Assembly: GCF_048262375.1 (NCBI RefSeq)
Contig: NZ_JBLXFE010000017.1
Location: 581-64,580, forward strand
Reading direction: 5' to 3'
Length of the DNA: 64,000 nt
Source: Roseovarius sp.
GTDB taxonomy: Bacteria > Pseudomonadota > Alphaproteobacteria > Rhodobacterales > Rhodobacteraceae
Shown: piece by piece, positions 22,751 to 57,198 of the stretch
How the letters are laid out: every line of letters starts with the position of its first letter
Numbering within the stretch: the stretch's first letter is position 1
Position numbers and translations under genes: made by a program
The notes under the pieces: model-generated
Seen by the model: the letters and a program-made list of their open reading frames with translations, nothing else
Told to the model about the DNA's origin: nothing
Databases searched by the model: none

Positions 22751-22776
22751 GGACGCTCATATTCACAGCCATCACA

Positions 22777-31842: not shown

Positions 31843-31863
31843 TCCTTGTGCATCGCTTTGGCT

Positions 31864-33940: not shown

Positions 33941-33942
33941 AT

Positions 33943-38636: not shown

Positions 38637-40445
38637 ATGCAGGCGACAGGCAGTTCGCAACCCCTCGCGTTGCGGCGGGCAGACTTCCCGACTCTTATTG
38701 AGGCTCTCGACTATGCAGCCAAGGGTGAGACCGGGGTCAATTTCTATAACGCCCGCGGAGAACTGTACGCAAGCTCCACCTATGCCGATCTTCAGGCTGA
38801 TGTGATCGAACTTGCACATCGTCTTCTGAGCTTGGGTGTCGAGCCGGGTGGGCGGGTTGGCCTTGTTGCAGAAACCTCACCGCATTTCGTACGGTTCTTC
38901 TGGGCCTGCCAGTATGCCGGGCTTGTTCCGGTTCCGTTGCCCGCCACGATGCACATTGGGGGCCATGCGGGCTATGTCGCGCAATTGCGGGGGCTGATCC
39001 AAAACTGTGGTGCGACGGTTGCGATGGCCCCGACCGAGTGGATGAGCTTTCTTGAGGAAGCCACGGCAGGCTCTGATCTGACCTTTGTTGGCACGCCCGA
39101 GGATTTCGACAGTCTTGCGCCTTCGGCACAAGACCTGCCACCGGTATCGCCCGACAGCATCGCCTATATTCAATATACCTCGGGCAGCACCCGCTTTCCG
39201 CGCGGCGTGGTCATCGACCATGCGACCGTGCTCGCCAACATCAATGATATGGCGACCCACGGGCTCAAGATGAATGACCGGGATCGGTTTGGATCATGGC
39301 TGCCATTTTACCACGATATGGGCCTTGTCGCCTTTATCATGATGCCGATGGCCACTCAGCGTTCCGTCGATTTTCTGGGAACGCAGGATTTCGCCATGCG
39401 TCCGCGCAAATGGCTCGAGATGATGTCGACCAATCAGACAACCATCACCTCCGGACCTCCCTTTGGCTATGATCTCGCCGCGATGCGGGTGCGTCCGAGC
39501 GATGCCGAACAGTGGGATTTGAGCGCGCTGCGCGTTGCCTGCGTCGGTGCTGAAATGATCAATCCCGAGCCGCTGAAACGCTTTGCCGAAGCGCTCGCGC
39601 CGTCGGGGTTCAAATCGACCGCGTTTCTGCCCTGTTACGGCATGGCTGAATGTTCTCTTGGCATCAGCTTTGCCGGTCTGGATGAAGAGTTGAACATCGA
39701 CTATGTCGATGCGGAACAGATGCAGCAAGACAGCGTTGCCCAACCGCTCGATCCGCAGGACGCCGTCAAATCCAAGCGCCGCGTTGCGCGTTATGTGGAT
39801 TGCGGTGCGCTATTGCCCAGCTTTGAAGTGTCGGTTCGTGATGAAAACGGCACGCCGCTTCCTGAACGTCAGGCCGGGGTCATTCATCTGCGCGGTCCAA
39901 GCGTGATGAGCCGGTATTTCCAGGACGAGGCCACCACTCAGGAATGCCTGAGCGCGGATGGCTGGCTCGACACCGGCGATATTGGATACATGGCGGACGG
40001 GCGGCTGTTTTTGACCGGGCGTCAAAAGGACATGATCATCATCCACGGCCGTAACATCTGGCCCGAGGATCTGGAATATCTGGCAAAAACTCAGCCGGGC
40101 GTCAATTACACCGACGCCGCAGCCTTCTCGGTGCCCTCCGAAGTGGACCAGCAGGAAACGGCGGTTCTGGTGGTGCAATGCCGTGAGCGCGACGAGATCA
40201 AGCGCGCGCGTCTGAGCAAAACCATCGCGTCCTTGGTGCGCTCCGAATTCGGTATTGATTGCGTCATCGAACTGGTGCCGACACGCACGTTGCCCCGCAC
40301 ATCTTCGGGCAAGCTGGCACGGGCTCGGGCGCGGCTCGACTTCCTTGACAGACGCCGTGCCGCCAAAATCCAAGTCCAGCCGGAACCTATCGAAAGCCTG
40401 CCTGTAGAGCAGCAGGGCAGGGCGCCGATCCGTTACATCGCATGA
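38637..40445 (+). CDS. Fatty acyl-AMP ligase / acyl-ACP synthetase for sphingolipid synthesis (AasR-like)
   Basis: QYTSGSTRFPRGV, SWLPFYHDMG, CYGMAE, DTGDIG, GRQKDMIIIHGRNIWPEDLE and PRTSSGK. First gene of the aas-epimerase-acp-spt operon. ATG 38637 has an AAGGA RBS; the track start is 38586. Confidence 0.85.
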   Translation: MQATGSSQPLALRRADFPTLIEALDYAAKGETGVNFYNARGELYASSTYADLQADVIELAHRLLSLGVEPGGRVGLVAETSPHFVRFFWACQYAGLVPVPLPATMHIGGHAGYVAQLRGLIQNCGATVAMAPTEWMSFLEEATAGSDLTFVGTPEDFDSLAPSAQDLPPVSPDSIAYIQYTSGSTRFPRGVVIDHATVLANINDMATHGLKMNDRDRFGSWLPFYHDMGLVAFIMMPMATQRSVDFLGTQDFAMRPRKWLEMMSTNQTTITSGPPFGYDLAAMRVRPSDAEQWDLSALRVACVGAEMINPEPLKRFAEALAPSGFKSTAFLPCYGMAECSLGISFAGLDEELNIDYVDAEQMQQDSVAQPLDPQDAVKSKRRVARYVDCGALLPSFEVSVRDENGTPLPERQAGVIHLRGPSVMSRYFQDEATTQECLSADGWLDTGDIGYMADGRLFLTGRQKDMIIIHGRNIWPEDLEYLAKTQPGVNYTDAAAFSVPSEVDQQETAVLVVQCRERDEIKRARLSKTIASLVRSEFGIDCVIELVPTRTLPRTSSGKLARARARLDFLDRRRAAKIQVQPEPIESLPVEQQGRAPIRYIA

Positions 40446-41404
40446 ATGGACCCGTTGCGGTAACGGGTGCATCAGGCTTTGTCGGGCAGGCCCTGATCGG
40501 GCAGCTACTTGCTGCGGGTCGATCGGTGCGCGCGCTGGTTCACCGGCAGCCGCTGACAATCAGCCACCCGGATCTGGAAACGGTTACGGGTGGTTTGTCG
40601 GACGAGCGCGCCGTGGCGCGGTTGCTGGACGGGGCAGGGGCGGTGGTCCATGTCGCAGGACGGGTGCGTGGCCGCACCGATGCCGATTTTCTTGTGGTGA
40701 ATGCCAAGGGCGTGTCTACGGTCGCGCGGGCTGCATTGGCCTCTCAGTCCGTGACCCGGCTGATCCTGATTTCCTCATTGGCCGCGCGCGCGCCGCACCT
40801 GTCGCCCTACGCCGCCAGCAAACGCGCGGGCGAAGACCGGCTGTCGGCGGCAACCATGACCACAGATCTGTCCACGGCCGTATTGCGCCCGCCGGCAGTC
40901 TATGGTCCCGGTGACCGTGAACTGGTGCCGCTCTTTCTGATGATGGCGCGTGGCCTCAGTCCGATGCCAAGCGTACCGAATGCGCGCGCCTCATTGCTGC
41001 ATGTGGATGACCTTGCGCAAGCGATTGTCAAACTTCTGGACAGCACCGCGCAGGGTACTTATGAACTCCACGACGGGCATGGATTGGGGTATAGCTGGGA
41101 CGAGATTGCTACCATCGTCGAAGGCGTCGCAGGGCGGGGTCGCGGCTGGCGTTTCAGGATACCCGAGACCGCACTAAGATCCGTCGCCATGGTCAATATG
41201 CTTGGCGCGCGCCTGTTTGGGTACATGCCGATGCTGACACCCGGCAAGGTTAACGAATTACGCCATCCGGATTGGGTGTGCGACAACACCGAAATTAGCC
41301 GCGCCACAGGCTGGCAGCCGCTGATTCCTCTGGAGGACGGGCTATCTTCTTTGGTTAAGAGGGTGCCGTCGAAATCTGATAAGGGCATATCGAATGTCAC
41401 ATGA
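40442..41404 (+). CDS. NAD(P)-dependent extended SDR, CerR-like ceramide/3-keto reductase
   Basis: TGASGFVG, SSLAA, YAASK (YxxxK) and LRPPAVYGPGD. Overlaps aas upstream and acp downstream. Confidence 0.8.
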   Translation: MNGPVAVTGASGFVGQALIGQLLAAGRSVRALVHRQPLTISHPDLETVTGGLSDERAVARLLDGAGAVVHVAGRVRGRTDADFLVVNAKGVSTVARAALASQSVTRLILISSLAARAPHLSPYAASKRAGEDRLSAATMTTDLSTAVLRPPAVYGPGDRELVPLFLMMARGLSPMPSVPNARASLLHVDDLAQAIVKLLDSTAQGTYELHDGHGLGYSWDEIATIVEGVAGRGRGWRFRIPETALRSVAMVNMLGARLFGYMPMLTPGKVNELRHPDWVCDNTEISRATGWQPLIPLEDGLSSLVKRVPSKSDKGISNVT

Positions 41405-41660
41405 GACCCAAGACCTCGAACAAGAGATCATGCAGACGCTGTTTCAGCGCCTTGCCAAGTTTCCGATCAAATCTGGCGAATTGACCGCAGAAACAAGCCT
41501 TGTGGCCGATATGAGCCTCGACTCGATCAACATGATGGAACTGCTGATGGAGGTGGAAGACACCTTTGACGTCAGTTTCCCGTTGAACATGATGGCCAAT
41601 GTCACCACGGTCCAAAACCTCGCCGATCAAATCAAACAACTCGTTGAAAACAAATCATGA
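41394..41660 (+). CDS. Dedicated acyl carrier protein (AcpR-like)
   Basis: 88 aa acidic protein with LDSINMMEL (phosphopantetheine Ser) and FPLN. Stop overlaps the spt start. Confidence 0.9.
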   Translation: MSHETQDLEQEIMQTLFQRLAKFPIKSGELTAETSLVADMSLDSINMMELLMEVEDTFDVSFPLNMMANVTTVQNLADQIKQLVENKS

Positions 41661-42874
41661 GCATTTCAGAACGCTTCGCCGAACTGGCGCATCTGCGTGA
41701 CGCATTGGGCGCCGTCGAGGCAGACCCGAGCCGGATCGTCATGCAAAAAATCCTGTCCTCAACCGAGGCGGTGATTGGCAACCGTCCCACGATCCTCGTT
41801 GGCACCAACAACTATCTTGGCCTGACCTTTGATCCAACAGTCCTTGAGGCGGCCACGTTGGCCATGCACGAGCAGGGCAGTGGCACCACCGGATCGCGCA
41901 TGGCCAATGGCAGTTTTGCTGGCCATGCCGCTCTAGAGCGCGAATTTGCAGAGTTCTATGGCGTTCCGTCGGCCATGATCTTTTCAACCGGTTACCAGAC
42001 CAACCTTGGCCTTTTGATGGCCATTCTCCGACCGGGCGACAAGGTGGTTCTCGACTCCCACAGCCATGCCTGTATCTATGACGGCTGCCGCATCAGTGGC
42101 GCGGATTTTATGGCTTTCCGGCACAATGATCCCGACGATCTGCGCAAGCGGCTCAGACGCCTCGGAGCCGAGGCCAAAGGCGCGCTCGTGATTGCAGAGG
42201 GACTCTACAGCATGCTGGGTGACGTGGCCCCGCTGGCGGAACTCTGTGCCATTGCCAAGGAATACGGCGCATGGTTCATGGTCGATGAGGCCCATTCCTT
42301 TGGGGTTTATGGTGATAGGGGGCTGGGGCTCTGTGAAGAGGCTGGCATTCTGGATCAGGTCGATTTCATCACCGGCACATTCAGCAAGAGCCTTGCCTCT
42401 CTCGGCGGCTTCTGTGTGAGCCGCCATCCCGAGATGCAATTGCTACGCTATGGCAGCCGCCCGTATATCTTTACTGCCTCATCCAGCCCGGCCAACATCG
42501 CCGCCGCCGATGCCGCGCTCCGGGCGATCCGTACCCGGCCAGAGCTCAAGGCAAAGCTCTGGGCCAATGCCGAACGCCTCTATGACGGCCTGAAGGCCGC
42601 AGGCTATGAGCTGGCCGCCTCGGTCAGCCCGGTTATCGCGGTGCGCGTGCCATCAAGAGAAGAGGGTGCGCGGATATGGAACGCGCTTTTGGCCGAAGGT
42701 GTCTATGTCAATCTGGTATTGCCACCGGCAGCGCCCGAAGGTGAGGCGTTGCTCCGTTGCAGCATGAGTGCCGCGCATAGCTTTGAGCAGATCGACACGA
42801 TTGTGGCGGCGTTCAAGCATGTCTCGGCCAGTGCCGAAATCCCCACCACCAGCCAGAGTGCCGGCGCGCATTAG
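41657..42874 (+). CDS. spt: Serine palmitoyltransferase (bacterial homodimeric type)
   Basis: GTNNYLGLTFDP, GSGTTGSRMANG, FSTGYQTNLG, SHACIYDG, EGLYSMLGDVAPL, DEAHS, GTFSKS (PLP Lys), RPYIFTAS and YVNLVLPPAAPEG..LLRCS. Collinear with my recollection of Sphingomonas SPT, and adjacent to an ACP gene. Confidence 0.88.
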   Translation: MSISERFAELAHLRDALGAVEADPSRIVMQKILSSTEAVIGNRPTILVGTNNYLGLTFDPTVLEAATLAMHEQGSGTTGSRMANGSFAGHAALEREFAEFYGVPSAMIFSTGYQTNLGLLMAILRPGDKVVLDSHSHACIYDGCRISGADFMAFRHNDPDDLRKRLRRLGAEAKGALVIAEGLYSMLGDVAPLAELCAIAKEYGAWFMVDEAHSFGVYGDRGLGLCEEAGILDQVDFITGTFSKSLASLGGFCVSRHPEMQLLRYGSRPYIFTASSSPANIAAADAALRAIRTRPELKAKLWANAERLYDGLKAAGYELAASVSPVIAVRVPSREEGARIWNALLAEGVYVNLVLPPAAPEGEALLRCSMSAAHSFEQIDTIVAAFKHVSASAEIPTTSQSAGAH

Positions 42875-42879
42875 GCATT

Positions 42880-42904
42880 CGGGCCGGGATAAATCCCCGG
42901 CCCG
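42880..42904. terminator. Intercistronic hairpin directly after spt
   Basis: CGGGCCGGG-ATAAATC-CCCGGCCCG (9-bp stem), 8 nt before the next ATG. Confidence 0.55.
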
Positions 42905-42912
42905 TAGACCCC

Positions 42913-43890
42913 ATGACGGTAAGTATGGCAATGGCAATGCAGGCCCCCAAAGACCCCAAGTCGCGAGCAGGGGCAATGCTGGCGCATCTGTCGGACCCGC
43001 ACCTGCCGTTGTCCGGTGGCGTGCCGCTGCGCGCCGTGCTGAACAAGCGCCTGCTTGGCCTCTTGTCGTGGCATTTGAAACGGCACCGCCGCCATCGGCC
43101 TGAAACACTGACTCGGCTGATCGCAGACCTGCGGTGCCAGTCCCCTGATCTGATCGCGGTGACCGGGGATCTGACCAACCTTGGCCTGGACAGTGAATAC
43201 CGCGCGGCCCGCACTTGGCTAGAAGGGCTGGGCGATCCACGCCATGTCATGGTCATTCCCGGCAATCACGAGGCGCTGATTGACGGCGCCTGGGACCGTG
43301 GGGCGGCATCTTGGCAACCCTATTGGCAAGGCGATGAGGCCCTTCGGACCACGGATGTTGCACAGGCCTTTCCCGTCTTGCGCCGACGGGGCCCGCTGGC
43401 CCTGATTGGCACCTCAAGTGCCATTGCCACGCCCTTGGGGTTTGCCTCAGGCGAAATGGGCAAGGCTCAGCTTGATCGGCTTGCTGCCTTGCTACGGCGC
43501 ACCCGCAGCGAGGGGCTGTTTCGGGTGCTCATGATCCATCACCCACCGCTCGACGGGACGGTCGTGGCGCGCAAACATCTGCGCGACGGCGCAGCCCTCC
43601 GAGCCTTGCTGCAAACCGAGGGCGTCGAGCTGGTCCTGCATGGCCACAGCCACAGAAGCCATCAGCAGAGCTTGACAACGCGCGACGGGTCTGTGCCGGT
43701 GATCGGGGTTCCTTCGGCCTCTTCGATGCACCACGAGGCGGCGGCCTATAACCTTTACAATATTGTTCCTACAGATACGGGATGGAGCGTGACCCTCACA
43801 ACCCGACGTTTGGGCGAGGGTCAGAAAATGGAGACGGGTCGATGCGTCAGTTTGACAATACCGCGCCCGCACGCGGCATGCGCGTCATGA
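42913..43890 (+). CDS. Calcineurin-like metallophosphoesterase
   Basis: All five motifs are present: HLSDPH, TGDLTN, PGNHE, HHP and LHGHSH. Confidence 0.9.
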   Translation: MTVSMAMAMQAPKDPKSRAGAMLAHLSDPHLPLSGGVPLRAVLNKRLLGLLSWHLKRHRRHRPETLTRLIADLRCQSPDLIAVTGDLTNLGLDSEYRAARTWLEGLGDPRHVMVIPGNHEALIDGAWDRGAASWQPYWQGDEALRTTDVAQAFPVLRRRGPLALIGTSSAIATPLGFASGEMGKAQLDRLAALLRRTRSEGLFRVLMIHHPPLDGTVVARKHLRDGAALRALLQTEGVELVLHGHSHRSHQQSLTTRDGSVPVIGVPSASSMHHEAAAYNLYNIVPTDTGWSVTLTTRRLGEGQKMETGRCVSLTIPRPHAACAS

Positions 43891-44011
43891 CACGGCCCCT
43901 CGATACCGGTTCAAGACCGATTGCGGCAGGCAGTTTGACCGCATGCCGCAACTACAGGATAACTGTGCATCCGGTGCGCAATTCGTCCGACCAAGACACG
44001 AAAGTCCTCTC

Positions 44012-45715
44012 ATGCGTTTGATGCTGAACCTTTTCCGCGCCTATCCGATGGCCAGTTTCCTCATGGTGCTGGCCCTGTTCTTTTCGGGTTTGGCCGAGGG
44101 GCTGGGTGTTTCCGCGATGCTGCCCATGCTCAAGATCGCGCTCTATTCCGACCAGTCTGCGGCCACGGCGGAACCTCCGGGCGCGATGGAGCAGGTGGTG
44201 CTGGATGCCCTCGCTTGGGCCGGAATTCCCGCCACGCTGGGTGCTTTGCTGATATTGATCGTGGTTGCGGCTTGTTTCAAGGCGGTCTTGCTCTTGGTCG
44301 CACAGCGTCAGGTCGGCTATACCGCCGCGCAGGTCGGAACCGATCTGCGGCTGCAAATCCTGCGCAACATGATGCGCAGCCGCTGGCACTTTTTCCTGCA
44401 CCAGCCGACGGGCAAGCTGACCAACGCGCTCGCAACCGAGGCACAACGCGCGGCAGATGGCTATATGTTCGGTGCCACTGCACTCACCTTCTTCATTCAG
44501 GCGCTTGTGTATGCCTCTGTCGCCGTTTTGATATCGTGGAAGGCGACACTGCTTAGCCTGATTGGCGGGATCGTGATCATCGGACTGTCGCATTTTCTGG
44601 TGCGCATGACCCGCAAGGCGGGCAAGAAACAAACCGATCTGATGGTCTCGTTGATGTCGCATCTGACAGACACCCTGCAATCGGTCAAACCGCTCAAGGC
44701 AATGGCGCGTGAACATCTCGCGGATGAATTGCTGAAGCACGAGACCAACCGGCTGAACAAGGCGCTGCGCCGTCAGGTGCTGGCAAGTGCCGCTCTCAAT
44801 TCCGGTCAGGACCTGATGTTCGTGATGATCATCGCCTTTGGCGTTTATCTGGCCTTGGGCGTCCTCTCGATGGATTTTGCCACCGTGCTCATTCTTGCGG
44901 TGACCTTGGGGCGGGCCTACAATTTTTTAGGCAAGGTTCAAAAACAGTATCAGAAACTCGTCCAATGTGAGAGCGCCTATTGGTCGCTGAAGGAAACCAA
45001 CAGCCGCGCTGAAGCCGAACAAGAGCACCTTGGCGGGCATATAGCACCCGCGCTGAATACCGGAATATCGCTGCGCGACATCGCATTTTCCTATGACGGG
45101 CATTCGGTGTTTGCCGGTCTCGAACTAGACATTCCGGCGCATCAGATCACCACGCTGGTTGGCCCTTCGGGTTCTGGCAAAACCACGGTTATTGATCTTG
45201 TCATCGGTCTGTTGCGGCCCGGTGGCGGGGAAATCACCGTGGATGGCGTTCCGTTTGAGGAAATAGACCTTAAGGCGTGGCGGCGGATGGTGGGATATGT
45301 GCCACAAGAAACCGTGTTGCTCCACGACAGCATCCTTCACAATGTCTCGCTTGGGGACCCCAAGATTTCGACGGCGCGGGTCGAGCAAGCCTTGAAAAAG
45401 GCCGGGGCATGGGAGTTCGTGAACGATCTGCCCGAGGGCGTTCATACTGTAGTCGGAGAACGCGGCGGACGGCTATCCGGTGGACAGCGTCAAAGGGTTG
45501 CCATTGCACGCGCCTTGATCAACGAGCCGCAACTTCTGATCCTTGATGAGGCCACCAGCGCCCTCGATCCAGAGAGCGAGGCCGCAATCATCGAGACCCT
45601 GCGCGCGCTCCGCGAACACCTCACGATCCTTGCGATCACGCATAACAGTAGCCTCTCGGACGCGGCGGATATCGTGCACCGTCTTGCCCCTTCGGCGGGG
45701 ATCAGGGCTGGGTAA
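44012..45715 (+). CDS. ABC exporter half-transporter (TMD+NBD), MsbA/PglK-like lipid or glycolipid flippase
   Basis: Six-TM N-terminal half; GPSGSGKT, LSGGQRQR and LILDEATSALD. Start at ATG 44012 (MRLMLNLFRAYP). Confidence 0.88.
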   Translation: MRLMLNLFRAYPMASFLMVLALFFSGLAEGLGVSAMLPMLKIALYSDQSAATAEPPGAMEQVVLDALAWAGIPATLGALLILIVVAACFKAVLLLVAQRQVGYTAAQVGTDLRLQILRNMMRSRWHFFLHQPTGKLTNALATEAQRAADGYMFGATALTFFIQALVYASVAVLISWKATLLSLIGGIVIIGLSHFLVRMTRKAGKKQTDLMVSLMSHLTDTLQSVKPLKAMAREHLADELLKHETNRLNKALRRQVLASAALNSGQDLMFVMIIAFGVYLALGVLSMDFATVLILAVTLGRAYNFLGKVQKQYQKLVQCESAYWSLKETNSRAEAEQEHLGGHIAPALNTGISLRDIAFSYDGHSVFAGLELDIPAHQITTLVGPSGSGKTTVIDLVIGLLRPGGGEITVDGVPFEEIDLKAWRRMVGYVPQETVLLHDSILHNVSLGDPKISTARVEQALKKAGAWEFVNDLPEGVHTVVGERGGRLSGGQRQRVAIARALINEPQLLILDEATSALDPESEAAIIETLRALREHLTILAITHNSSLSDAADIVHRLAPSAGIRAG

Positions 45716-46880
45716 TCGGCTCTGAGGCCAGCGTCTGCGCGCCCTCCTCGGGCGGCGCCAACCCCATGAGCGCATTGATCCGCGCGACGGCGCGCGCCAT
45801 GTCGCTTGGCGGTGGCGTCCCTTGGGGCGCCGCCACCGGCTCTCCCAGCCAGTTCATTCTGCCCGAACGCACCAGCCTGAGATGCATCTGGCTGATATCG
45901 CGTGACAGATGTTTCCAACCCCATCGCATCAGCCCCCGGTATGCCAAGGCGCCAAGGGTCAAATCGGGCCGGTCCGTGTCCTGTCGGCGCAGGGCCTCCG
46001 CCTGTTGCGTCTCTCCGAGCGCCAACAGCGTATCGCGGCGCATGCTGAAAGAGCCCGCGCTCAGATCGAACATATGCACGGGTTTCCCGGTGGCATAGGC
46101 CTCTGACAACATCGAGATGCTGTCGGCCGTCACGATGATCTCATCGGCGAGGGCGAGAAACCCGAGATAGGGGTTATCTGGATCACCGGGTGTCCAGCGA
46201 TACAGATGCATGGGCACCTCTTGCTGCGCGGCAAAGGCGTCAATCGCTTGGTGCGGGGTTCGCGCGCTCGAGCTGACCAAGAGCGATCCACCACGCTTGC
46301 GCGCCAGATCCAGCGTATCGCGCAAGAGCCGCTGCGCCGCCCGTGAACCAAAGGCATAGGGGCCGCTTGATCCACCGATATTCACGGTCAGATAGGGCCG
46401 CGGCAGATGGGCAAGATCTTGGGCCCAGCGGGCCTTGGCCTCGGCCAGACGACGCGGTCCCAGCGGATGCAGGGGCAGGGCGTTGCGCAGAACATTCGGC
46501 CCGTCGGGGACCCGGTATTGCGGTGTGGTGATCACCAGATCGAACAGCGCTGGATCGGCCCACAGACGTCCCAGAAACACCAGCCGGGTGCGACCGCCCG
46601 ATTGATCGCGGATCCACCGGCACACAGGTTCGTTGCGCATTGCCATGGACAGCACAAGATCGGGCCATGGCGGCGCAAGCGCATCAGAGGCCGGCACATC
46701 GATGCCCCGCAGATCCTTGCCGCGCAACAGGTTGGTGCGCATCTCGAATTTGCGGTATTTGAGGGTTTTGATCTCATAGGGCCAACCCAGCCCGTCGGCC
46801 AAGGCGCGCAATTGGGTTTTCTCGCCCGATCTGTAGGCATCCACCACCCAGACACGCGGGCTCATTATTGGCTCAGACAT
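45702..46880 (-). CDS. ELM1/GtrOC1-family putative glycosyltransferase (paralog 1)
   Basis: RSGEKTQLRALADGLG, AMRNEP, ITTPQY, IGGSSG, SSSARTP, NPYLGFLALADEIIVTADSISMLSEA. Confidence 0.8.
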   Translation of the reverse strand: MSEPIMSPRVWVVDAYRSGEKTQLRALADGLGWPYEIKTLKYRKFEMRTNLLRGKDLRGIDVPASDALAPPWPDLVLSMAMRNEPVCRWIRDQSGGRTRLVFLGRLWADPALFDLVITTPQYRVPDGPNVLRNALPLHPLGPRRLAEAKARWAQDLAHLPRPYLTVNIGGSSGPYAFGSRAAQRLLRDTLDLARKRGGSLLVSSSARTPHQAIDAFAAQQEVPMHLYRWTPGDPDNPYLGFLALADEIIVTADSISMLSEAYATGKPVHMFDLSAGSFSMRRDTLLALGETQQAEALRRQDTDRPDLTLGALAYRGLMRWGWKHLSRDISQMHLRLVRSGRMNWLGEPVAAPQGTPPPSDMARAVARINALMGLAPPEEGAQTLASEPITQP

Positions 46881-47826
46881 CAGGCGCTTTTGCCGCCGCA
46901 GGATCTGGCTTGGGCCAGCGTCGCTTCATACAGACCCATTCGCCCGGATATTCGCGGATCCAGCTTTCAAACAACGCATTCAATTGGCGGGTCAGATCAA
47001 GTATCCGCTCCGTGCGCGGGGCGTCCGGCGCGCTCGGGCTGAGCGGGGCCAATACCTCGATCCGATACCGACAGTTTGGCAAGCGCACTGCCCGGATGGG
47101 CACAAGGGTATAGCCCCGCTGGGCGAGCATGGCCGGCAAGGTGCTGGTGGGCGTCGGCACGCCGAACAACGGCACCATCTCTCCCTGATCAATCCGGGTA
47201 TCAAACGCGGCGCCAACAGAACGCCCCGCCGCCAGTTCCCGCATAAGCTCGCGCGCGCCCCCCGTGCTTGGCACAAGCGGGCCACCAAATGCGCGACGTC
47301 TGGCAAGAAAGAACTTATGTAGCCACGGATTGGGCTCTTGGGTGTAAATGACGGAAATCGTCAACCCATATTCCCGCCCGATCAGGTTGCACAGTTGCCA
47401 TGCGCCGACATGGGCCGTGGCAAAAACAATCGCCTCTTTGCGGTCAAAGGCGGCCTGAGCCTCTGGGTGGATCGAAAACTCCAGATGCCGCGCGCGTCGT
47501 CGCCACAGGCGACCGAGCAGAAACAACTCCGCCGCCGCAAGGCCGGTGGACCGAAAGATTTGCCGCACCACGTCCTCGCGCGCGGTTTCGCTGGCGTCTG
47601 GCAAAACAAAGGACACATTGCGCCGCACCACACGGCGCTTTTTCTCATTATAATAGCCAAACTTTCCCAGCAGACGCGAAAAGACCACGGCCGCCACCCG
47701 AAACGGGACGATCCGGGCAAATCCAAGCAAGAGATAGAAAACCGAAGCTTCCAGAAGCCAGACAGGGGTTTGGATCCAGCCAATCCGCTCAACCAGCCCC
47801 TTGGGCATCAAATAGTATTTGGCCAT
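46873..47826 (-). CDS. LpxL/HtrB-family lysophospholipid acyltransferase with a non-canonical HX4Q motif
   Basis: TAHVGAWQL, AFDTRIDQG, PLFG, TLPAMLA, WIREYPGEWVCMKRRW. Confidence 0.82.
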   Translation of the reverse strand: MAKYYLMPKGLVERIGWIQTPVWLLEASVFYLLLGFARIVPFRVAAVVFSRLLGKFGYYNEKKRRVVRRNVSFVLPDASETAREDVVRQIFRSTGLAAAELFLLGRLWRRRARHLEFSIHPEAQAAFDRKEAIVFATAHVGAWQLCNLIGREYGLTISVIYTQEPNPWLHKFFLARRRAFGGPLVPSTGGARELMRELAAGRSVGAAFDTRIDQGEMVPLFGVPTPTSTLPAMLAQRGYTLVPIRAVRLPNCRYRIEVLAPLSPSAPDAPRTERILDLTRQLNALFESWIREYPGEWVCMKRRWPKPDPAAAKAPDV

Positions 47827-47880
47827 AGCAGGATCCCATCCCGGATCGGCGGCGCGGATATGAGGTCACGCAGCCTGCGC

Positions 47881-48528
47881 CTAGTCTCGACCAGACCGCT
47901 CTGTCTTGGACGGGTATGTGCGGAATATCCAGTCCCAAAAGGGAGAGCTTACCCCATATCTGCCATCCTCATTCGAAAAGTGATGACGCATGTGGTAATG
48001 CTTGAGGAACTTCAGCAGGGGGTGACGCATCGGAAAATGGTGCGTCGCATAGTGGATGTAATCATAGACCAGATAACCGATGATGAAAAACCCGGTGAAC
48101 GGCTCGGCCCAAGGATAGGGCAGGACCGTGTAAAACAAGAGGTAAAGCACGGCAATGATCGGCAGCGCCCCGGCGGGCGGCATCAGCAGGCGGGTCTTGT
48201 CCTGCGGCGTGTCGTGGTGGACCCCGTGGAACAGATAGATAAACCGCTTGCCCGCGTCGGTCTTGGGCTCAAAATGGAACAGATAGCGGTGCAACAGATA
48301 CTCTGCCAGCGTCCATGTCGCCAAACCGGCCACCCCGATCAACAGCAGTCCGGAAAATCCGATCCCATGCACGCTAACCGCGCGCACCAACAGCCAGATC
48401 GCCACCGGGCCCCAGACCAGCAACGGAACGATCGGATGGACATGGCTCAGCTTTTCCAGAATTGGATTGTCGAACAAGCGCACCGACTCGTCGACACGGT
48501 GGGTGCGACTGGGCTGATGATTAGACAT
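47881..48528 (-). CDS. Fatty-acid hydroxylase superfamily, FA2H/Scs7-like sphingolipid alpha-hydroxylase (no cytochrome b5 domain)
   Basis: Four His boxes: EYLLHRYLFH, HGVHHD, YDYIHYATHH and HMRHH. Also RLLMPP and YGVSSPFWDWIFRT. Confidence 0.85.
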   Translation of the reverse strand: MSNHQPSRTHRVDESVRLFDNPILEKLSHVHPIVPLLVWGPVAIWLLVRAVSVHGIGFSGLLLIGVAGLATWTLAEYLLHRYLFHFEPKTDAGKRFIYLFHGVHHDTPQDKTRLLMPPAGALPIIAVLYLLFYTVLPYPWAEPFTGFFIIGYLVYDYIHYATHHFPMRHPLLKFLKHYHMRHHFSNEDGRYGVSSPFWDWIFRTYPSKTERSGRD

Positions 48529-48554
48529 GGGGGCACTCCTGATATGCGCCGAAC

Positions 48555-49523
48555 TTACCCGTCTTCATATACATCGGTCTTGGCCCGAAGAACAGTAGAC
48601 GGCCATATTTTGCTCGTACAAAGCCATTCTCCGGGCTTTGCCGTTATCCATTGCTCGAACTTTTCGTTGATCTGATTGGCGAGGTCAACCGCCTGATTGT
48701 CGCGGTCAAGGCCGGGGTCCCTGGGGACCAGCGGGGCATGGAAACGCACCCGAAACCGCGCCCCCGGCAAACGTTCTGCCTGCACTGGCACCAGCGGCAC
48801 GCCAGACCGCAGAGCCAGTCGGGCGGGCAGGATAGAGGTCTCTTTCCCCTCGCCAAAAAACGGGAGCGATTTGCCCCCTTCGATGCGCCTGTCAGTGATC
48901 ATCATCGGAGAACGGCCTGATTTCAACGCATCCATAAAGGCGCGCAGCCCGTCATCACGCGACACCAGATCGCATCCCAGAACGCTGCGATAGTTCAGCA
49001 TCAGCCGGTCGAGCCAAGGATTGGACAGCGGCGCGTACATCGCGCGCGCCGGAATGCCAAGCCGGGTAATCGCAAGCGCGATCACTTCCCAATTGGCCAA
49101 ATGCGCCGCAACAAACACCGCAGGTGGGTGCGGCGCAGTATAGGCGGGAATTTGCTCGAGTATTTCAATACTGATACAATTCCGCCGAATATCACCAATC
49201 TTGTGAAGATTGGGATACTCCGCCAAAACCGAGCCCGCATTGCCCCAGACCTCATCCGCGAGTCGGCTGATCTCAGCGGGGGATTTCTCTGGCAAAACAA
49301 GCGAGAGGTTGGCGCGCACATGCTGGGATCGCCGATAGGCGATTTTGCCAAAGAGCGTCCCAAGACGCCTCCCAAGCCCCGAGGCCCAAGCCAAGGGCAA
49401 AACCCTGAAAAGCCCCATGAACGTGGAGACAAGAACATAATCGACGAACCACAGGATGTTTCGAACGAAAGCATTGTTGAATGCTCTGTGACGTTGCGCA
49501 TTCGCGAGAATGAATTTGGCCAA
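48555..49523 (-). CDS. LpxL/HtrB-family lysophospholipid acyltransferase (canonical HX4E)
   Basis: AAHLANWEV, YAPLSNP, ITDRR, PFFG, LPARLA, WITAKPGEWL. Confidence 0.85.
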   Translation of the reverse strand: MAKFILANAQRHRAFNNAFVRNILWFVDYVLVSTFMGLFRVLPLAWASGLGRRLGTLFGKIAYRRSQHVRANLSLVLPEKSPAEISRLADEVWGNAGSVLAEYPNLHKIGDIRRNCISIEILEQIPAYTAPHPPAVFVAAHLANWEVIALAITRLGIPARAMYAPLSNPWLDRLMLNYRSVLGCDLVSRDDGLRAFMDALKSGRSPMMITDRRIEGGKSLPFFGEGKETSILPARLALRSGVPLVPVQAERLPGARFRVRFHAPLVPRDPGLDRDNQAVDLANQINEKFEQWITAKPGEWLCTSKIWPSTVLRAKTDVYEDG

Positions 49524-49761
49524 TGTGACTCGACTTCTTCATGTGCAGTGTGGATACTCGCCACGTTATTTGAGGCTAGGTGCTGGAATTGCAAGCAGTT
49601 TCCGTGATTTGTCCAGCCCGTGCGCCTCTGGGGTCAGGGATGGGTATGCGCCGCCACCTCAGGTTGCCGTCAGGGTGGGGCGTGGACAGTCTCATGGTAT
49701 CTGTTATCTGCCATCCGCGCATATCAAGGGCAGGATCCATTCACTGCAAGAAAGGCACTTC

Positions 49762-50913
49762 ATGTCAGTAGCAAAGTCTGATCGCAATCAGATCAGCTTG
49801 GTCGAAGCCAAGAGCGGTCAAACGATACAGGATTTCCTGCATCTGCCCGATCGCATTTACGCCAATGATCCGGCATGGATTGCGCCGCTGATGTTCGAGC
49901 AGAAAGAGCGCGTATTCAACAACAAGCCGCTGTTTGAGCATTGCGACGTCGCCTGCTGGGTGGCCTATCGGGATGGTGCGCCGGTGGGACGGATTACCGC
50001 GCAGCTTGACCAGCTTCAGCCGGAAGAGGACGGCGGCGGCAAGATCGGCTATTTCGGCATGTTCGAAGCCATTGATGACACCGCCGTATGCGACGCGCTG
50101 TTCGAGACCGCGCAAAACTGGCTGCGCACAAAAGGCGCGGCCTTTATGCGCGGGCCCTACAACCTGACGATCAACGAAGATCTCGGGCTCTTGGTCGAGA
50201 ATTTCGACGATCCCCCGTTTATCATGATGGGCCATGCGCCGCGCTATTATCAGCAGCGCTTTGAGGATCAGGGGCTGATAAAGATCAAGGATTTGCTTAC
50301 CTACAAGGTGCGCCCGGATTTTGTCGCCCCCGACGTCATGTTGAAACTGGCCGCGCGGGCCAGCCGGACGGTGACCATCCGGCCGCTCAATCCCAAGGCA
50401 AAAGCCGCCGATTTTGAGGCCATGCGTGATATCTTCAACGATGCATGGTCCGACAACTGGGGGTTTGTCCCCTTTACGCAGGCGGAATTCGCTGAAACTG
50501 CCAAGGTTCTATCTCTGCTCTTGTCCGATGATTACATTCAGTTTGCGGAAATCGACGGGCGGCCGGTGGCCTTTATCACCGCCTTCCCCAATGTCAACGA
50601 ATTGATCGGTGATCTGCGCGGTCGGCTCTTGCCGTTTGGCTGGGCGAAACTGCTCTGGCGGCTCAAGGTCAAAGGCCCCCGCAGCGCGCGCGTCGCCCTG
50701 ATGGGGGTGCGCAAGGAATACCAGAATTCGCGCCTTGGCCCGACCCTTGCCTTTCTGGTGATCGACGCCGTGCGCAAGGCCATGCAGCAAAGAAACGTCA
50801 CGTCGGTCGAGATGGGCTGGATACTAGAAGATAATCATGGCATGCGACACATCATCGAAGCAATCGGCAGCACGATCTACAAGCGCTATCGCGTTTACCA
50901 AAAACCATTGTAG
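49762..50913 (+). CDS. Bacterial ceramide synthase-like GNAT N-acyltransferase (bCerS-like)
   Basis: IYANDPAWIAPL, VGRITAQ, GYFGMFE, MRGPYNLTINE.LGLLVENFDDPPFIMMGHAPRYY, FNDAWSDNWGFVPF, MGVRKEYQ, EMGWILEDN and YKRYRVY, the pattern I recognise for this family. Start at ATG 49762. Confidence 0.82.
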   Translation: MSVAKSDRNQISLVEAKSGQTIQDFLHLPDRIYANDPAWIAPLMFEQKERVFNNKPLFEHCDVACWVAYRDGAPVGRITAQLDQLQPEEDGGGKIGYFGMFEAIDDTAVCDALFETAQNWLRTKGAAFMRGPYNLTINEDLGLLVENFDDPPFIMMGHAPRYYQQRFEDQGLIKIKDLLTYKVRPDFVAPDVMLKLAARASRTVTIRPLNPKAKAADFEAMRDIFNDAWSDNWGFVPFTQAEFAETAKVLSLLLSDDYIQFAEIDGRPVAFITAFPNVNELIGDLRGRLLPFGWAKLLWRLKVKGPRSARVALMGVRKEYQNSRLGPTLAFLVIDAVRKAMQQRNVTSVEMGWILEDNHGMRHIIEAIGSTIYKRYRVYQKPL

Positions 50914-50961: not shown

Positions 50962-51783
50962 GTGAAAGACTTTACTTCCGTAATTCTCGCTGGTGAGCGG
51001 GCAGACCGTGATGCTCTGCGTGATGAAACCGGCGTGGCCTGCAAGGCGCTGCTTGACATAGATGGAACGATCATGATCCGCCGCGTGATAAACGCGCTCG
51101 AGCAGGCCTCCTCTATTGCCTCGATCCACCTGAGCGGCCCCACCGAAGCCTGCGTCAAAAGCGATGCCGGGCTGACGGAACTCATGGCGCAGAACCGGGT
51201 GGACTGGACCGCTCCCGGTGTCTCTCCCAGCACCAGCGCGCATGAGATGCTCAGCCGGTTTCCCGCAACACAGCCGGTGTTGATCACCACCGCCGACCAT
51301 CCTTTGCTGACGGGTGAAATTGTCGATCACTTCTGCCGTGGCAGCGCCAAGAGCGGCTGTGACGTGGTGATCGGTCTGGCCCCCTATGATCTGGTCAGAG
51401 ATACCTATCCCGACCTGAAGAAAACTGTGCTTCAGTTCCGTGACGGTGGCTATTGCGGCTGCAACCTCTTCGCCTTCATGACGCAAGAAGGGCGTGGCGT
51501 GGCCGATTTCTGGCGACGTGTCGAAAAGGACCGTAAAAAGCCGCTCGTGGTGATCCGGCTCTTGGGGCTCTGGGCCTTGCTGCGCTACAGGCTTGGCTGG
51601 CTCAGTCTCGATCAGGCGCTTGCGGGCCTGTCCCGCCGCGTCGGCCTGCGCATTGGCGTCGTGATCCTGCCCTTTGCGCATGCCTCAGTGGATGTGGATT
51701 CGGTGTCTGACTATCTGCTGGTGCAACGCTACAGCAAGGAGGCGGCAGAGCGTAGCAAAGCCGAGTCCAGCCCCGCGGGCTAA
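50962..51783 (+). CDS. MobA-like NTP transferase (CpgD-like cytidylyltransferase candidate)
   Basis: VILAGER, KALLDIDG, ITTADHPLL, GCNLFAF and VDVDS. Directly follows the bCerS-like gene. Confidence 0.78.
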   Translation: MKDFTSVILAGERADRDALRDETGVACKALLDIDGTIMIRRVINALEQASSIASIHLSGPTEACVKSDAGLTELMAQNRVDWTAPGVSPSTSAHEMLSRFPATQPVLITTADHPLLTGEIVDHFCRGSAKSGCDVVIGLAPYDLVRDTYPDLKKTVLQFRDGGYCGCNLFAFMTQEGRGVADFWRRVEKDRKKPLVVIRLLGLWALLRYRLGWLSLDQALAGLSRRVGLRIGVVILPFAHASVDVDSVSDYLLVQRYSKEAAERSKAESSPAG

Positions 51784-52794: not shown

Positions 52795-52866
52795 AGAGGG
52801 TATCGCTCGGTCTTTGTATGGGTAATTTTGTCCGGATGGGGTACAGGTGCCAGTCTGTGACATGGA

Positions 52867-54000: not shown

Positions 54001-54002
54001 CC

Positions 54003-54023
54003 GGCGCGGCCTTGGGCCGCGCC
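54003..54023. terminator. Bidirectional hairpin between convergent genes
   Basis: GGCGCGGCC-TTG-GGCCGCGCC. Confidence 0.6.
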
Positions 54024-54032
54024 ATATATCAC

Positions 54033-54983: not shown

Positions 54984-55173
54984 GGTGGGGGATCCGCAAC
55001 CTCGGTTTTTTTGTTCTGAGCGGCTCTATACAGGAGTTTTTTCTGAGACGCCATGTCCAGAAACACAATTAAAACTGTCGTGTATTGATCTGGATCAGAG
55101 ATTGGGCCGAATGCTACGCTTTTGTAACCAAAACGTGGCCTGATACGCGGGTTCCCGCCCATGCACAGGGCCT

Positions 55174-56133: not shown

Positions 56134-56210
56134 GGATCAGATACGCCTCGAATGAATACTCTGCTGCCCGTGTTATATGCCCGCGCCACCGGGGCAAACA
56201 AGCGCTGCGC

Positions 56211-57197: not shown

Positions 57198-57198
57198 G

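What the first reader, a model, noticed from the sequence alone, without database searches (positions are those of the whole stretch)
38637..50913. Core ceramide module (aas-cerR-acp-spt plus a separate bCerS) in a Roseobacter-group accessory region
The order aas-epimerase-acp-spt matches my recollection of the Caulobacter locus (CCNA_01223-01220). The bCerS homolog (CCNA_01212-like) sits a few genes away, as it does there. The four genes are translationally coupled (overlaps at 40442-40445, 41394-41404 and 41657-41660). Their position downstream of a tRNA/integrase remnant suggests the whole capacity to make sphingolipids was acquired horizontally.
Basis: partly seen in the sequence, partly recalled or inferred. 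Interest (0 to 1): 0.7.

Follow-up and report, generated by a model that had tools for sequence, protein, structure and literature searches.

The report
Known Roseovarius roseoceramide gene cluster

Summary
At 38637-42874 (+) four overlapping genes encode a fatty acyl-AMP ligase (AasR), an SDR reductase (CerR), a small ACP (AcpR) and a serine palmitoyltransferase (Spt). A GNAT acyltransferase (bCerS) follows six genes later; its likely true start is 49765. All five are reciprocal best hits of the Caulobacter ceramide genes, in the same order.

The genome is a Roseovarius. The locus is collinear with R. mucosus DSM 17069 and R. tolerans at 65-89% amino-acid identity. It is therefore the published 'rcc' roseoceramide cluster (Ganley & Seyedsayamdost, PNAS 2025). 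That paper showed Spt activity in vitro and a d14:0/12:0 dihydroceramide product.

Horizontal origin is supported, but not through the tRNA-Thr/integrase remnant. That lies 15 kb away and its integrase match is sub-threshold. The real evidence:
- rcc occurs in 6 of 40 congeners, and any Spt in only 4 of 400 other genera of the family.
- The insertion site is empty in relatives.
- Three other Roseovarius species carry a second, unrelated ceramide cluster.
- The rcc lineage is well separated from the other alphaproteobacterial clusters.

Composition is native and the distribution largely follows one subclade, so the acquisition is old. The core sits in a co-inherited block of about 21 kb or more with lipid-decorating genes. 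That block is the only open question.

The parts
38637..40445 (+). aasR (rccA-type): fatty acyl-AMP ligase / acyl-AcpR synthetase
   Evidence: NCBIfam NF006624 fatty acyl-AMP ligase, 732 bits against a cut-off of 600. Pfam AMP-binding. Reciprocal best hit of the Caulobacter sp. aasR-position gene at 45%. 85-86% identical to R. tolerans and R. mucosus. SD-like AAGGA 8 nt before the ATG at 38637.
40442..41404 (+). cerR: extended-SDR NAD-dependent reductase (ceramide reductase type)
   Evidence: Pfam Epimerase/3Beta_HSD. TGASGFVG Rossmann motif at residues 8-15 and YAASK at 123. Reciprocal best hit of the Caulobacter cerR-position gene at 41%. ATGA overlap with aasR.
41394..41660 (+). acpR: specialised 88-aa acyl carrier protein
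   Evidence: Pfam PP-binding, 41.9 bits. Candidate phosphopantetheine serine in LDSI. Scores below the cut-offs of all housekeeping ACP models. Reciprocal best hit with Caulobacter. 11-nt overlap with cerR and ATGA overlap with spt.
41657..42874 (+). spt (rccD): serine palmitoyltransferase, PLP-dependent alpha-oxoamine synthase
   Evidence: NCBIfam SerpalmtaseBetaP equivalog, 579.8 bits against 500; AlphaP 447 against 670; bioF, Kbl and ALAS models all below cut-off. Best PDB match is S. wittichii SPT 2x8u (410 bits), against Kbl 215, cysteate acyltransferase 191, BioF about 185, bacterial ALAS 170. H137, D210, H213 and K244 sit in the SHA, DEAH and FSKS motifs. In the tree it is separated from the genome's own Kbl and HemA. 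88-89% identical to R. tolerans and R. mucosus.
42913..43890 (+). rccE-type metallophosphoesterase (CC_1158-like)
   Evidence: Pfam Metallophos. 45% identical and reciprocal best hit to the Caulobacter locus gene at the CC_1158 position. Named RccE in PMC11789144.
43943..45715 (+). rccF-type MsbA-like ABC exporter (candidate sphingolipid flippase)
   Evidence: Pfam ABC_membrane + ABC_tran; MsbA models score below cut-off. Close homologues occur only in rcc+ genomes of the genus. 48-50% identical to the ABC gene that directly follows spt in Methylothermaceae loci.
45702..49523 (-). Four minus-strand genes between rccF and bCerS: ELM1-family (45702-46880), LpxL-like (46873-47826), fatty-acid hydroxylase (47881-48528), LpxL-like (48555-49523)
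   Evidence: Pfam PF06258, PF03279, PF04116, PF03279. Collinear in all 16 Roseovarius rcc loci long enough to show them. Not found at DNA level in rcc-less congeners.
49765..50913 (+). bCerS (cerS): GNAT-type N-acyltransferase, bacterial ceramide synthase
   Evidence: Pfam Acetyltransf_1, 31.9 bits against 20.7. 45% identical (E 3e-104) and reciprocal best hit to the Caulobacter gene at the CC_1154 position, and followed there too by an NTase. Homology to non-Roseovarius orthologues starts at residues 69-95 of the 467-aa ORF, so the start is Met86 = 49765. No solved relative by sequence.
50962..51783 (+). MobA-like nucleotidyltransferase (CC_1153-like), co-directional with bCerS
   Evidence: Pfam NTP_transf_3. 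35% identical and reciprocal best hit to the gene after cerS in Caulobacter loci.
51820..59330 (.). Rest of the block shared by all rcc+ Roseovarius: sulfotransferase, ELM1-family, unknown 316 aa, Tam41-like (CC_1161-like), DAGK-type lipid kinase (CC_1160/CerK-like), ELM1-family, sulfotransferase
   Evidence: Pfam. Homologues of the kinase and the Tam41-like gene lie next to spt in Caulobacter and other loci. DNA matches only in rcc+ genomes.
22588..23304 (+). tRNA-Thr(TGT) plus a 175-aa ORF with a weak integrase-N-terminal (DUF6538) likeness. Examined and judged not linked to the cluster.
   Evidence: ARAGORN and Rfam. DUF6538 E 0.028, below cut-off. No 3'-tRNA repeat elsewhere on C17 or C6. 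The intervening block 23317-35241 is shared with rcc-less G001.

Best explanation
Window 38.6-50.9 kb holds the core genes of the Roseovarius roseoceramide ('rcc') pathway, the bacterial route to dihydroceramide. By analogy with Caulobacter biochemistry and the R. tolerans and R. mucosus data, the steps are as follows. AasR adenylates a free medium-chain fatty acid (C12, if the product is as in the sister species) and loads it onto holo-AcpR. Spt condenses acyl-AcpR with L-serine, with loss of CO2, to 3-oxo-sphinganine (d14). bCerS, cytoplasmic, N-acylates it. CerR reduces the 3-keto group, giving a d14:0/12:0-type dihydroceramide. The order of the last two steps is debated in the literature. 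The co-transcribed phosphoesterase (RccE) and MsbA-like exporter (RccF) probably process and flip the lipid. The four core genes overlap at stop/start, so they are probably translated as one coupled unit. bCerS forms a separate plus-strand unit with an NTase. Shown here: gene identities, orthology, order, distribution and phylogeny. Shown in the literature for orthologues: Spt activity, the ceramide product, AasR-to-AcpR-to-Spt channelling. Inferred: chain lengths and activity in this particular strain. The cluster entered a Roseovarius subclade by an old horizontal transfer, from a lineage nearer to beta/gamma-proteobacterial clusters than to other alphaproteobacterial ones. Since then it has been mostly inherited vertically, with relocation and probable loss.
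For: Family assignments above curated cut-offs for AasR and Spt. Spt ranks with solved SPTs, about 200 bits above Kbl, BioF and ALAS. The genome has its own separate Kbl and HemA. Catalytic motifs are intact in Spt, CerR and AcpR. Reciprocal best hits to a Caulobacter locus whose order equals the published CC_1165-CC_1153 map. Collinearity at 65-89% aa identity with R. mucosus DSM 17069 and R. tolerans, the two species in which rcc, RccD activity and roseoceramide A were demonstrated. AasR/AcpR/Spt channelling is shown in PMC9386255. HGT: rcc DNA in 6 of 40 congeners. Any Spt in 4 of 400 other genera of the family, all at 50% identity or less. The dxs-side flank abuts a C5:52075 homologue directly in five rcc-less genomes and in rcc+ G007 and G026. 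Three congeners carry a second ceramide cluster type that is phylogenetically distant. A concatenated AasR+CerR+Spt tree puts rcc with beta/gamma clusters (SH-aLRT 100). Related four-gene modules occur on plasmids of gamma- and beta-proteobacteria. Old age: GC 0.593 against 0.605 genome-wide, and GC3 within the genome range. In a dxs marker tree G000, G036, G028 and G061 form one clade (100), and rcc presence needs only 3 changes.
Against: No lipid or expression data exist for this strain. The donor is unresolved: the Spt-only tree is a polytomy, and an AU test does not reject rcc lying outside the beta/gamma group (p 0.19). The trees are unrooted or rooted on very long paralogue branches. The marker tree is a single gene (dxs) with paralogues. 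rcc+ G026 and G009 fall apart from the main rcc+ clade, and rcc-less G035 falls inside it, so loss and secondary transfer cannot be told apart. The Spt fails the alphaproteobacterial NCBIfam model (447 against 670) and passes only the betaproteobacterial one.
Confidence: 0.92

Rival explanations
1. One reading: the cluster is cargo of a tRNA-Thr-targeted integrative island and was acquired recently by site-specific integration.
For: tRNA-Thr at 22588-22663 is followed by an ORF with a faint integrase-N-terminal (DUF6538) likeness. The whole contig is a patchwork compared with relatives.
Against: The remnant match is sub-threshold and lacks a catalytic domain. aasR is 15.3 kb away. The intervening 23317-35241 block is shared at 86% with rcc-less G001, which has it beside its own tRNA-Thr. 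No repeat of the tRNA 3' end occurs on C17 or C6. Homology with other rcc+ genomes starts only at 38531. The junction shared with R. mucosus and G028 is on the opposite, dxs side. Composition is native.
Confidence: 0.04
2. The cluster is ancestral to Roseobacteraceae or Roseovarius and was lost many times, with no horizontal transfer.
For: Within one Roseovarius subclade the distribution looks largely vertical, and composition is native.
Against: Only 4 of 400 other genera in the family have any Spt, all at 46-50% identity. 34 of 40 congeners lack rcc. The site is cleanly empty in relatives. Two distant cluster lineages coexist in the genus. rcc does not group with the other alphaproteobacterial clusters.
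Confidence: 0.04
3. The AOS enzyme is not serine-specific. It could be a BioF substitute, a Kbl-like enzyme or a cysteate acyltransferase, so the product would be biotin precursor, aminoketone or sulfonolipid rather than a sphingolipid.
For: The genome shows no separate BioF-class paralogue at E<=1e-40. Sulfotransferases and sulfur chemistry are nearby.
Against: bioF 327 bits against 426 and Kbl 307 against 460, both below cut-off, while Spt is above cut-off. Solved SPTs score 391-410 bits, against cysteate acyltransferase 191 and BioF about 185. The orthologue RccD (88% identical in the type strain R. tolerans DSM 11457; the assayed enzyme came from strain EL-164) was assayed as Spt, and R. 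mucosus and R. tolerans make ceramides. The dedicated AasR, AcpR, CerR and bCerS partners are all present.
Confidence: 0.02

Closest known systems
rcc (roseoceramide) cluster of Roseovarius tolerans EL-164 and R. mucosus DSM 17069 (Ganley & Seyedsayamdost, PNAS 2025; PMC11789144)
   Same: Same genus, and the same gene order aasR-cerR-acpR-spt-phosphoesterase-MsbA-like plus bCerS. 65-89% aa identity across 13 collinear genes to R. mucosus DSM 17069 and R. tolerans DSM 11457. The patchy distribution within Roseovarius was also noted in the paper.
   Different: A different species: Spt 87-89% identical, core-flank DNA 80-86% to R. mucosus. The left flank is different, while the right (dxs-side) flank is the same as in R. 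mucosus. The paper's main text describes seven genes. Here the co-inherited block is at least 19 genes and about 21 kb. No lipid data exist for this strain.
Caulobacter crescentus ceramide genes CC_1165-CC_1162 + CC_1154 (CCNA_01223-01220 + CCNA_01212)
   Same: Identical order aasR-cerR-acpR-spt, with cerS several genes away and followed by an NTase. Homologues of CC_1158, CC_1160, CC_1161 and CC_1153 are also present.
   Different: Only 41-51% aa identity. Genes overlap here (-4/-11/-4), whereas the cerR-acpR gap is 55-95 nt in the Caulobacter and Brevundimonas loci. I found no CC_1159-type CDP-alcohol transferase and no LptC2/F2/G2 among the window's called ORFs (Pfam). ELM1-type, LpxL-type, hydroxylase and sulfotransferase genes were not detected within 10 kb of spt in the Caulobacter loci.
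Sphingomonas wittichii RW1 SPT with adjacent ACP (PDB 2x8u)
   Same: Best solved-structure match (410 bits, full length). The PLP lysine and the His/Asp motifs are conserved. The ACP-linked SPT concept applies.
   Different: It sits in a different clade of the Spt tree, with Emcibacter and Kordiimonas. In Sphingomonas the five genes are not all clustered.
Beta/gamma-proteobacterial ceramide clusters (Methylothermaceae, Nitrosomonadaceae, uncultured gamma MAG L018) and plasmid-borne FAAL-epimerase-ACP-AOS modules
   Same: Highest non-Roseovarius identities across nine proteins (L018: Spt 58, AasR 54, CerR 51, bCerS 49, NTase 49, phosphoesterase 48%). spt is followed directly by the ABC gene in Methylothermaceae. 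They group with rcc in the concatenated tree. Such modules sit on plasmids.
   Different: At most 58% identity. None of these loci within 10 kb of spt has the LpxL-like, hydroxylase or sulfotransferase genes, and only a few have an ELM1-type gene. The sister relation is not robust (SH-aLRT 91; AU p 0.19).

Membership tests
Bacterial serine palmitoyltransferase (AOS family) | Scores above the curated equivalog cut-off for Spt and below those for BioF, Kbl and ALAS | tested here: met
   SerpalmtaseBetaP 579.8 against 500. bioF 326.8 against 426. Kbl 306.6 against 460. ALAS 231 against 338.6. The AlphaP Spt model is not met (447.4 against 670).
Bacterial serine palmitoyltransferase (AOS family) | Groups with experimentally solved SPTs rather than with Kbl, BioF or ALAS | tested here: met
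   2x8u 410 bits and 2jg2 391 bits, against Kbl 215, BioF about 185 and ALAS 170-190. In the tree Spt is separated from the genome's own Kbl and HemA (SH-aLRT 97).
Bacterial serine palmitoyltransferase (AOS family) | PLP-binding lysine and His/Asp/His active-site residues | tested here: met
   K244 (FSKS), H137, D210 and H213 (DEAH), aligned to the S. wittichii SPT.
Bacterial serine palmitoyltransferase (AOS family) | Condenses L-serine with an acyl thioester | not testable with these tools
   Reported in vitro for R. tolerans RccD (PMC11789144). The R. tolerans orthologue available here is 88% identical.
AasR / AcpR (specialised acyl-ACP synthetase and ACP for sphingolipid synthesis) | A FAAL-type adenylating enzyme and a small PP-binding protein encoded directly upstream of spt, orthologous to CC_1165 and CC_1163 | tested here: met
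   NF006624 732 against 600. PP-binding 41.9 bits with a serine in LDSI. Reciprocal best hits at 45% and 41%.
AasR / AcpR (specialised acyl-ACP synthetase and ACP for sphingolipid synthesis) | AasR acylates AcpR selectively, not AcpP or CoA | not testable with these tools
   Shown for the Caulobacter proteins only (PMC9386255).
CerR (bacterial ceramide reductase, extended SDR) | NAD(P)-binding Rossmann motif and YxxxK, orthologous to CC_1164, located between aasR and acpR | tested here: met
   TGASGFVG and YAASK at 123. Pfam Epimerase 90.8 bits. Reciprocal best hit at 41%.
bCerS (bacterial ceramide synthase, GNAT) | GNAT-domain protein orthologous to CC_1154/CCNA_01212, encoded near spt | tested here: met
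   Acetyltransf_1 31.9 against 20.7. Reciprocal best hit at 45%, E 1e-95 to 3e-104, with no paralogue in the genome. The same neighbour (CC_1153-like NTase) follows it as in Caulobacter.
rcc roseoceramide cluster (Roseovarius) | Five ceramide genes plus RccE phosphodiesterase and RccF MsbA-like exporter, collinear with R. tolerans and R. mucosus | tested here: met
   All seven are present and collinear at 66-89% aa identity. Definition taken from PMC11789144.
rcc roseoceramide cluster (Roseovarius) | Produces roseoceramide A (d14:0/12:0 dihydroceramide) | not testable with these tools
   No lipid data for this strain.
tRNA-linked integrative genomic island | Cargo directly flanked by a tRNA gene, an integrase, and a direct repeat of the tRNA 3' end | tested here: not met
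   The tRNA is 15.3 kb from aasR. The integrase signal is sub-threshold. There is no 3'-tRNA repeat on C17 or C6. The intervening block is shared with rcc-less G001.
tRNA-linked integrative genomic island | Atypical base composition | tested here: not met
   Block GC 0.593 against genome 0.605 (sd 0.016 for 25-kb windows). GC3 0.64-0.74 against a genome median of 0.705.

The most novel reading that the evidence does not exclude
Free roseoceramide may be only a precursor. The core module is inherited as one block of about 21 kb or more with three ELM1-family (glycosyltransferase-like) genes, two LpxL-type acyltransferases flanking a fatty-acid hydroxylase, a CerK-like kinase, a Tam41-like gene, an NTase, a phosphoesterase and two sulfotransferases. 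The block may convert the ceramide into a multiply acylated, phosphorylated and/or glycosylated, sulfated outer-membrane sphingolipid that has not been chemically described. The module itself would have reached Roseovarius by cross-class transfer from a gamma/beta-proteobacterial donor.
Probability: 0.4. Interest if true: 0.6.

Novelty: already known. Interest (0 to 1): 0.15.

Why it matters
The core finding adds one more Roseovarius species to a cluster that has already been characterised genetically, enzymatically and chemically in two sister species. On its own it changes little.

This analysis adds the following beyond the paper's main text:
- The five ceramide genes are never inherited alone in Roseovarius. 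They travel in a block of about 21 kb and 19 genes.
- The genus holds two unrelated ceramide cluster lineages.
- The rcc lineage is nearer to beta/gamma-proteobacterial clusters than to other alphaproteobacterial ones.
- The insertion site next to the dxs-side core genes is empty in relatives, and the cluster sits elsewhere in some rcc+ species.

Together these make Roseovarius a tidy natural experiment for how sphingolipid capacity spreads among marine bacteria. They also point lipid chemists to look for larger, decorated sphingolipids in strains already in culture.

Tried and rejected
1. Mosaic-origin idea: RccF, LpxL and the kinase as duplicates of housekeeping lipid A genes. It was prompted by a paralogous trio on C6:196.7-200.8 kb (66/58/77% aa). 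Rejected: close RccF homologues exist only in rcc+ genomes, and the C6 copy only in G000 and G061. The trio is therefore a secondary partial copy of island genes.
2. tRNA-Thr att-site repeat search: none found.
3. Search for a full-length relative of the 'integrase remnant' in the genome and in all fetched loci: none. The best hit (C29) is a LuxR/hydrolase-type protein.
4. Rfam scan of the window: tRNAs only.
5. Promoter and terminator scans of 37.6-51.1 kb: no more sites than in shuffles.
6. AU tests. 'All alphaproteobacterial clusters one clade' is rejected (p 2e-45), but that is confounded by Nevskiaceae nesting with Caulobacteraceae. The specific test that rcc lies outside the beta/gamma group is not rejected (p 0.19). 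The donor class is therefore not proven.
7. The paper's supplement, wanted for the exact rcc boundaries, is not held.
8. Literature search for bacterial ELM1-family function: nothing found.
10. PLSDB: no Roseovarius plasmid carries rcc. Only distant modules on gamma/beta-proteobacterial plasmids were found.

Full report
WHAT IS THERE. The window is contig C17:581-64580 of a 4.13-Mb, 59-contig genome. Related loci identify the genus as Roseovarius: the 17 best Spt matches are Roseovarius records (one carries only an 'Alphaproteobacteria bacterium' label) at 78-89% identity, and the next best are 58% or less.

ORF calling with Pfam and NCBIfam gives this plus-strand series:
- 38586/38637-40445: fatty acyl-AMP ligase (NF006624, 732 bits against a cut-off of 600).
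- 40442-41404: extended-SDR 'epimerase'.
- 41394-41660: 88-aa PP-binding protein.
- 41657-42874: alpha-oxoamine synthase that passes the NCBIfam serine palmitoyltransferase equivalog (BetaP model, 579.8 against 500). It fails the AlphaP Spt, bioF, Kbl and ALAS models.
- 42913-43890: metallophosphoesterase.
- 43943-45715: MsbA-like ABC exporter.

Four minus-strand genes follow (ELM1-family, LpxL-like, fatty-acid hydroxylase, LpxL-like). After them comes a plus-strand GNAT protein ending at 50913.

OBSERVATION CHECK. The same -4/-11/-4 spacing is found in most Roseovarius orthologous loci checked (R. tolerans and one MAG have +11 at the cerR/acpR junction). Caulobacter, Brevundimonas and Nitrosomonas loci have gaps of up to 55-144 nt at the cerR-acpR junction. 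The GNAT ORF from its first start codon (49510) would overlap the divergent LpxL-like gene. Homology to every non-Roseovarius orthologue starts at residues 69-95, so Met86 (49765; 382 aa) is the probable start.

IDENTITY OF THE FIVE PROTEINS.
- Spt. Its best solved relatives are S. wittichii SPT (2x8u, 410 bits) and S. paucimobilis SPT (391 bits). Kbl scores 215, cysteate acyltransferase 191, BioF about 185 and ALAS 170-190. The PLP lysine (K244 in FSKS), H137 and D210/H213 (DEAH) are present.
- Paralogues. The genome has exactly two other AOS paralogues at E<=1e-40, and NCBIfam names them Kbl (650 bits) and ALAS (657 bits). In a tree the proteobacterial Spt proteins are separated from both (SH-aLRT 97).
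- CerR has TGASGFVG and YAASK. AcpR has its serine in LDSI.
- Orthology. In a Caulobacter sp. locus (L062) the homologues lie in this order: aasR, cerR, acpR, spt, Tam41-like (-), DAGK-type kinase (-), phosphoesterase, then GNAT and NTase. That is the published map CC_1165, 1164, 1163, 1162, 1161, 1160, 1158, 1154, 1153. AasR, CerR, AcpR, Spt, GNAT, NTase, phosphoesterase and the Tam41-like protein are all reciprocal best hits. Only the kinase is ambiguous, because the genome holds a paralogue of it.

ALREADY PUBLISHED. A full-text search led to Ganley & Seyedsayamdost, PNAS 2025 (PMC11789144). R. tolerans EL-164 and R. mucosus DSM 17069 make 'roseoceramides', chiefly roseoceramide A, a (14:0/12:0) dihydroceramide. 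The 'rcc' cluster holds the five ceramide genes plus a phosphodiesterase (RccE) and an MsbA-like transporter (RccF). RccD (Spt) activity was validated in vitro. The cluster is absent from R. nubinhibens, and attempts to delete it failed.

The window is collinear with R. mucosus DSM 17069 (L001) and R. tolerans DSM 11457 (L008) from aasR through the first sulfotransferase, at 66-89% aa identity. It is collinear with R. mucosus at the DNA level from 38531 to the contig end. The finding is therefore a further orthologue of a characterised cluster.

MECHANISM. Steps taken from the literature:
- AasR selectively acylates AcpR, and acyl-AcpR is the preferred Spt substrate (PMC9386255).
- Spt and bCerS are cytoplasmic and CerR is periplasmic. 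This favours N-acylation before reduction, although the order is debated (PMC11087976, PMC11324152).

Steps inferred here:
- The same route gives a d14/C12-type dihydroceramide in this strain.
- aasR-cerR-acpR-spt-rccE-rccF form one plus-strand unit. The gaps after spt and after rccE are 38 and 52 nt.
- bCerS and the NTase form another unit, with a 241-bp divergent spacer to the LpxL-like gene.

IS IT ACCESSORY, AND WAS IT TRANSFERRED?

Distribution. At DNA level, window 38531-64000 matches only 6 of 40 other species of the genus (G007, G009, G026, G028, G036 = R. mucosus, G061). The remaining 34 have nothing there except short acyltransferase hits in four of them. Across one genome from each of 400 other genera of the family, only 4 have any Spt, at 46-50% identity.

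A second lineage. Three congeners (G001, G012, G030) carry a different aasR-cerR-acpR-spt cluster at about 50% identity. It sits in a distant part of both trees.

The insertion site. The end of C17 joins the end of contig C6 through one RTX-repeat gene. R. mucosus and G028 show the same continuation into the homologue of C6:234615-241937. The flank conserved in all 40 genomes (it includes dxs) ends at about C6:238,745. In rcc-less G001, G013, G016, G030 and G035, that point abuts a homologue of C5:52075 within about 25-55 bp. The same is true in rcc+ G007 and G026, whose clusters lie elsewhere. The left flank differs between this genome, R. mucosus and G009.

Age. The block is compositionally native: GC 0.593 against 0.605 genome-wide, and GC3 is within the genome range. 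On a dxs marker tree G000, G036, G028 and G061 form a clade (100). G007 and rcc-less G035 join it next (99). G009 and G026 lie further out. rcc presence needs a minimum of three changes. This pattern fits an old acquisition followed by vertical descent, relocation and loss or secondary transfer.

Donor. The Spt-only tree leaves the rcc clade (100, stem 0.86) in a polytomy. A concatenated AasR+CerR+Spt tree (1239 columns) places it with the beta/gamma-proteobacterial clusters (SH-aLRT 100), nearest to Methylothermaceae and a gamma MAG (91). It lies away from the Caulobacteraceae, Emcibacter and Geminicoccaceae clusters and from the type-2 Roseovarius clusters. An AU test does not reject rcc lying just outside the beta/gamma group (p 0.19). 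The strong rejection of 'all alphas together' is confounded by Nevskiaceae nesting with Caulobacteraceae. The donor class is therefore suggested but not shown. Related four-gene modules occur on Klebsiella, Diaphorobacter, E. coli, Rahnella and Pseudomonas plasmids, so the module is demonstrably mobile.

THE tRNA/INTEGRASE ARGUMENT FAILS. tRNA-Thr is real. The adjacent 175-aa ORF gives only a sub-threshold DUF6538 hit and has no relative in the genome. It is 15.3 kb from aasR. The intervening block 23317-35241 (molybdopterin oxidoreductase, Liv-type ABC transporter, amidase) is 86% identical to a block in rcc-less G001. No repeat of the tRNA 3' end exists on C17 or C6. Homology with other rcc+ genomes begins only at 38531.

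The block shared by all rcc+ genomes runs from aasR to the second sulfotransferase (38.6-59.3 kb). Besides the genes already named, it includes:
- an NTase (CC_1153-like);
- two sulfotransferases;
- two more ELM1-family genes;
- a Tam41-like gene (CC_1161-like; PF09139, E 0.005);
- a DAGK-type kinase (CC_1160/CerK-like);
- an unknown 316-aa gene.

Most rcc+ genomes also share the AT3-SGNH acyltransferase at 59546-61510. Other notes of this scan already treat these parts. I use them here only as context and as the basis of the 'novel case'.

VERDICT. Horizontal origin is supported by independent evidence, not by the tRNA link. The feature is an orthologue of a cluster already characterised in the same genus, so novelty and interest are low.

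Noticed in passing
L105 (G001:C80:168001-188000), L106 (G012:C1), L107 (G030:C38): Three other Roseovarius species lack rcc but carry a second, phylogenetically distant aasR-cerR-acpR-spt cluster (Spt about 50% identical). In G012 it comes with bCerS, NTase, kinase and Tam41-like genes. The genus therefore holds two independent ceramide-cluster lineages.
   Followed up: partly
G000:C6:196700-200840 (L087:8702-12817): A paralogous trio sits among housekeeping genes (purF, radA, ubiU/V): DAGK-type lipid kinase, LpxL-like acyltransferase and MsbA-like exporter, 66/58/77% aa identical to the island copies. Close homologues of the exporter exist only in rcc+ genomes, and this second copy only in G000 and G061 (with a stop codon in G061). 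It looks like a partial duplicate of island genes, not the lipid A machinery.
   Followed up: partly
window 62438-64000 and beyond, to C17 end; G000:C6:241544-241937: The ORF running off the end of C17 continues as an RTX (HemolysinCabind) repeat protein entering C6 from its end. RTX repeats recur on C1 and C25 and explain the assembly break. R. mucosus and G028 show the same join.
   Followed up: partly
window 37706-38636: A 930-bp stretch without a convincing gene (GC about 0.56) lies between the Na/Pi cotransporter and aasR. Homology with other rcc+ genomes begins only at 38531, so this stretch is private to this genome and marks the left junction of the block.
   Followed up: partly
window 31552-33834: A 2.3-kb segment (GFO/IDH/MocA oxidoreductase and an adjacent ORF) is absent from the otherwise collinear, 86%-identical block in relative G001.
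   Followed up: no
window 45702-45715: The stop-proximal ends of the convergent rccF exporter gene (+) and the first ELM1-family gene (-) overlap by 14 nt.
   Followed up: no
whole genome G000: Only three alpha-oxoamine synthase paralogues are detectable at E<=1e-40 (Spt, Kbl on C3, ALAS on C8). No BioF-class gene was seen, which is consistent with biotin auxotrophy or an alternative route.
   Followed up: partly
PLSDB hits H1-H7 (e.g. NZ_CP106839.1 Klebsiella michiganensis, NZ_CP065408.1 Diaphorobacter, LT599585.1 Pseudomonas veronii): FAAL-epimerase-ACP-aminotransferase modules of the same four-gene type are plasmid-borne in several gamma- and beta-proteobacteria.
   Followed up: no
L021, L034, L043, L050 (Methyloversatilis, betaproteobacterial and alphaproteobacterial MAG loci): ELM1-family genes also sit directly next to spt or bCerS in unrelated ceramide clusters. 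In L021 and L034 weak homologues of the window's unknown genes at 54033-54983 and (L021 only) 61545-62381 lie beside them. A 56%-identical homologue of the 54033-54983 gene lies near the spt cluster of alphaproteobacterium G051 (L109).
   Followed up: no
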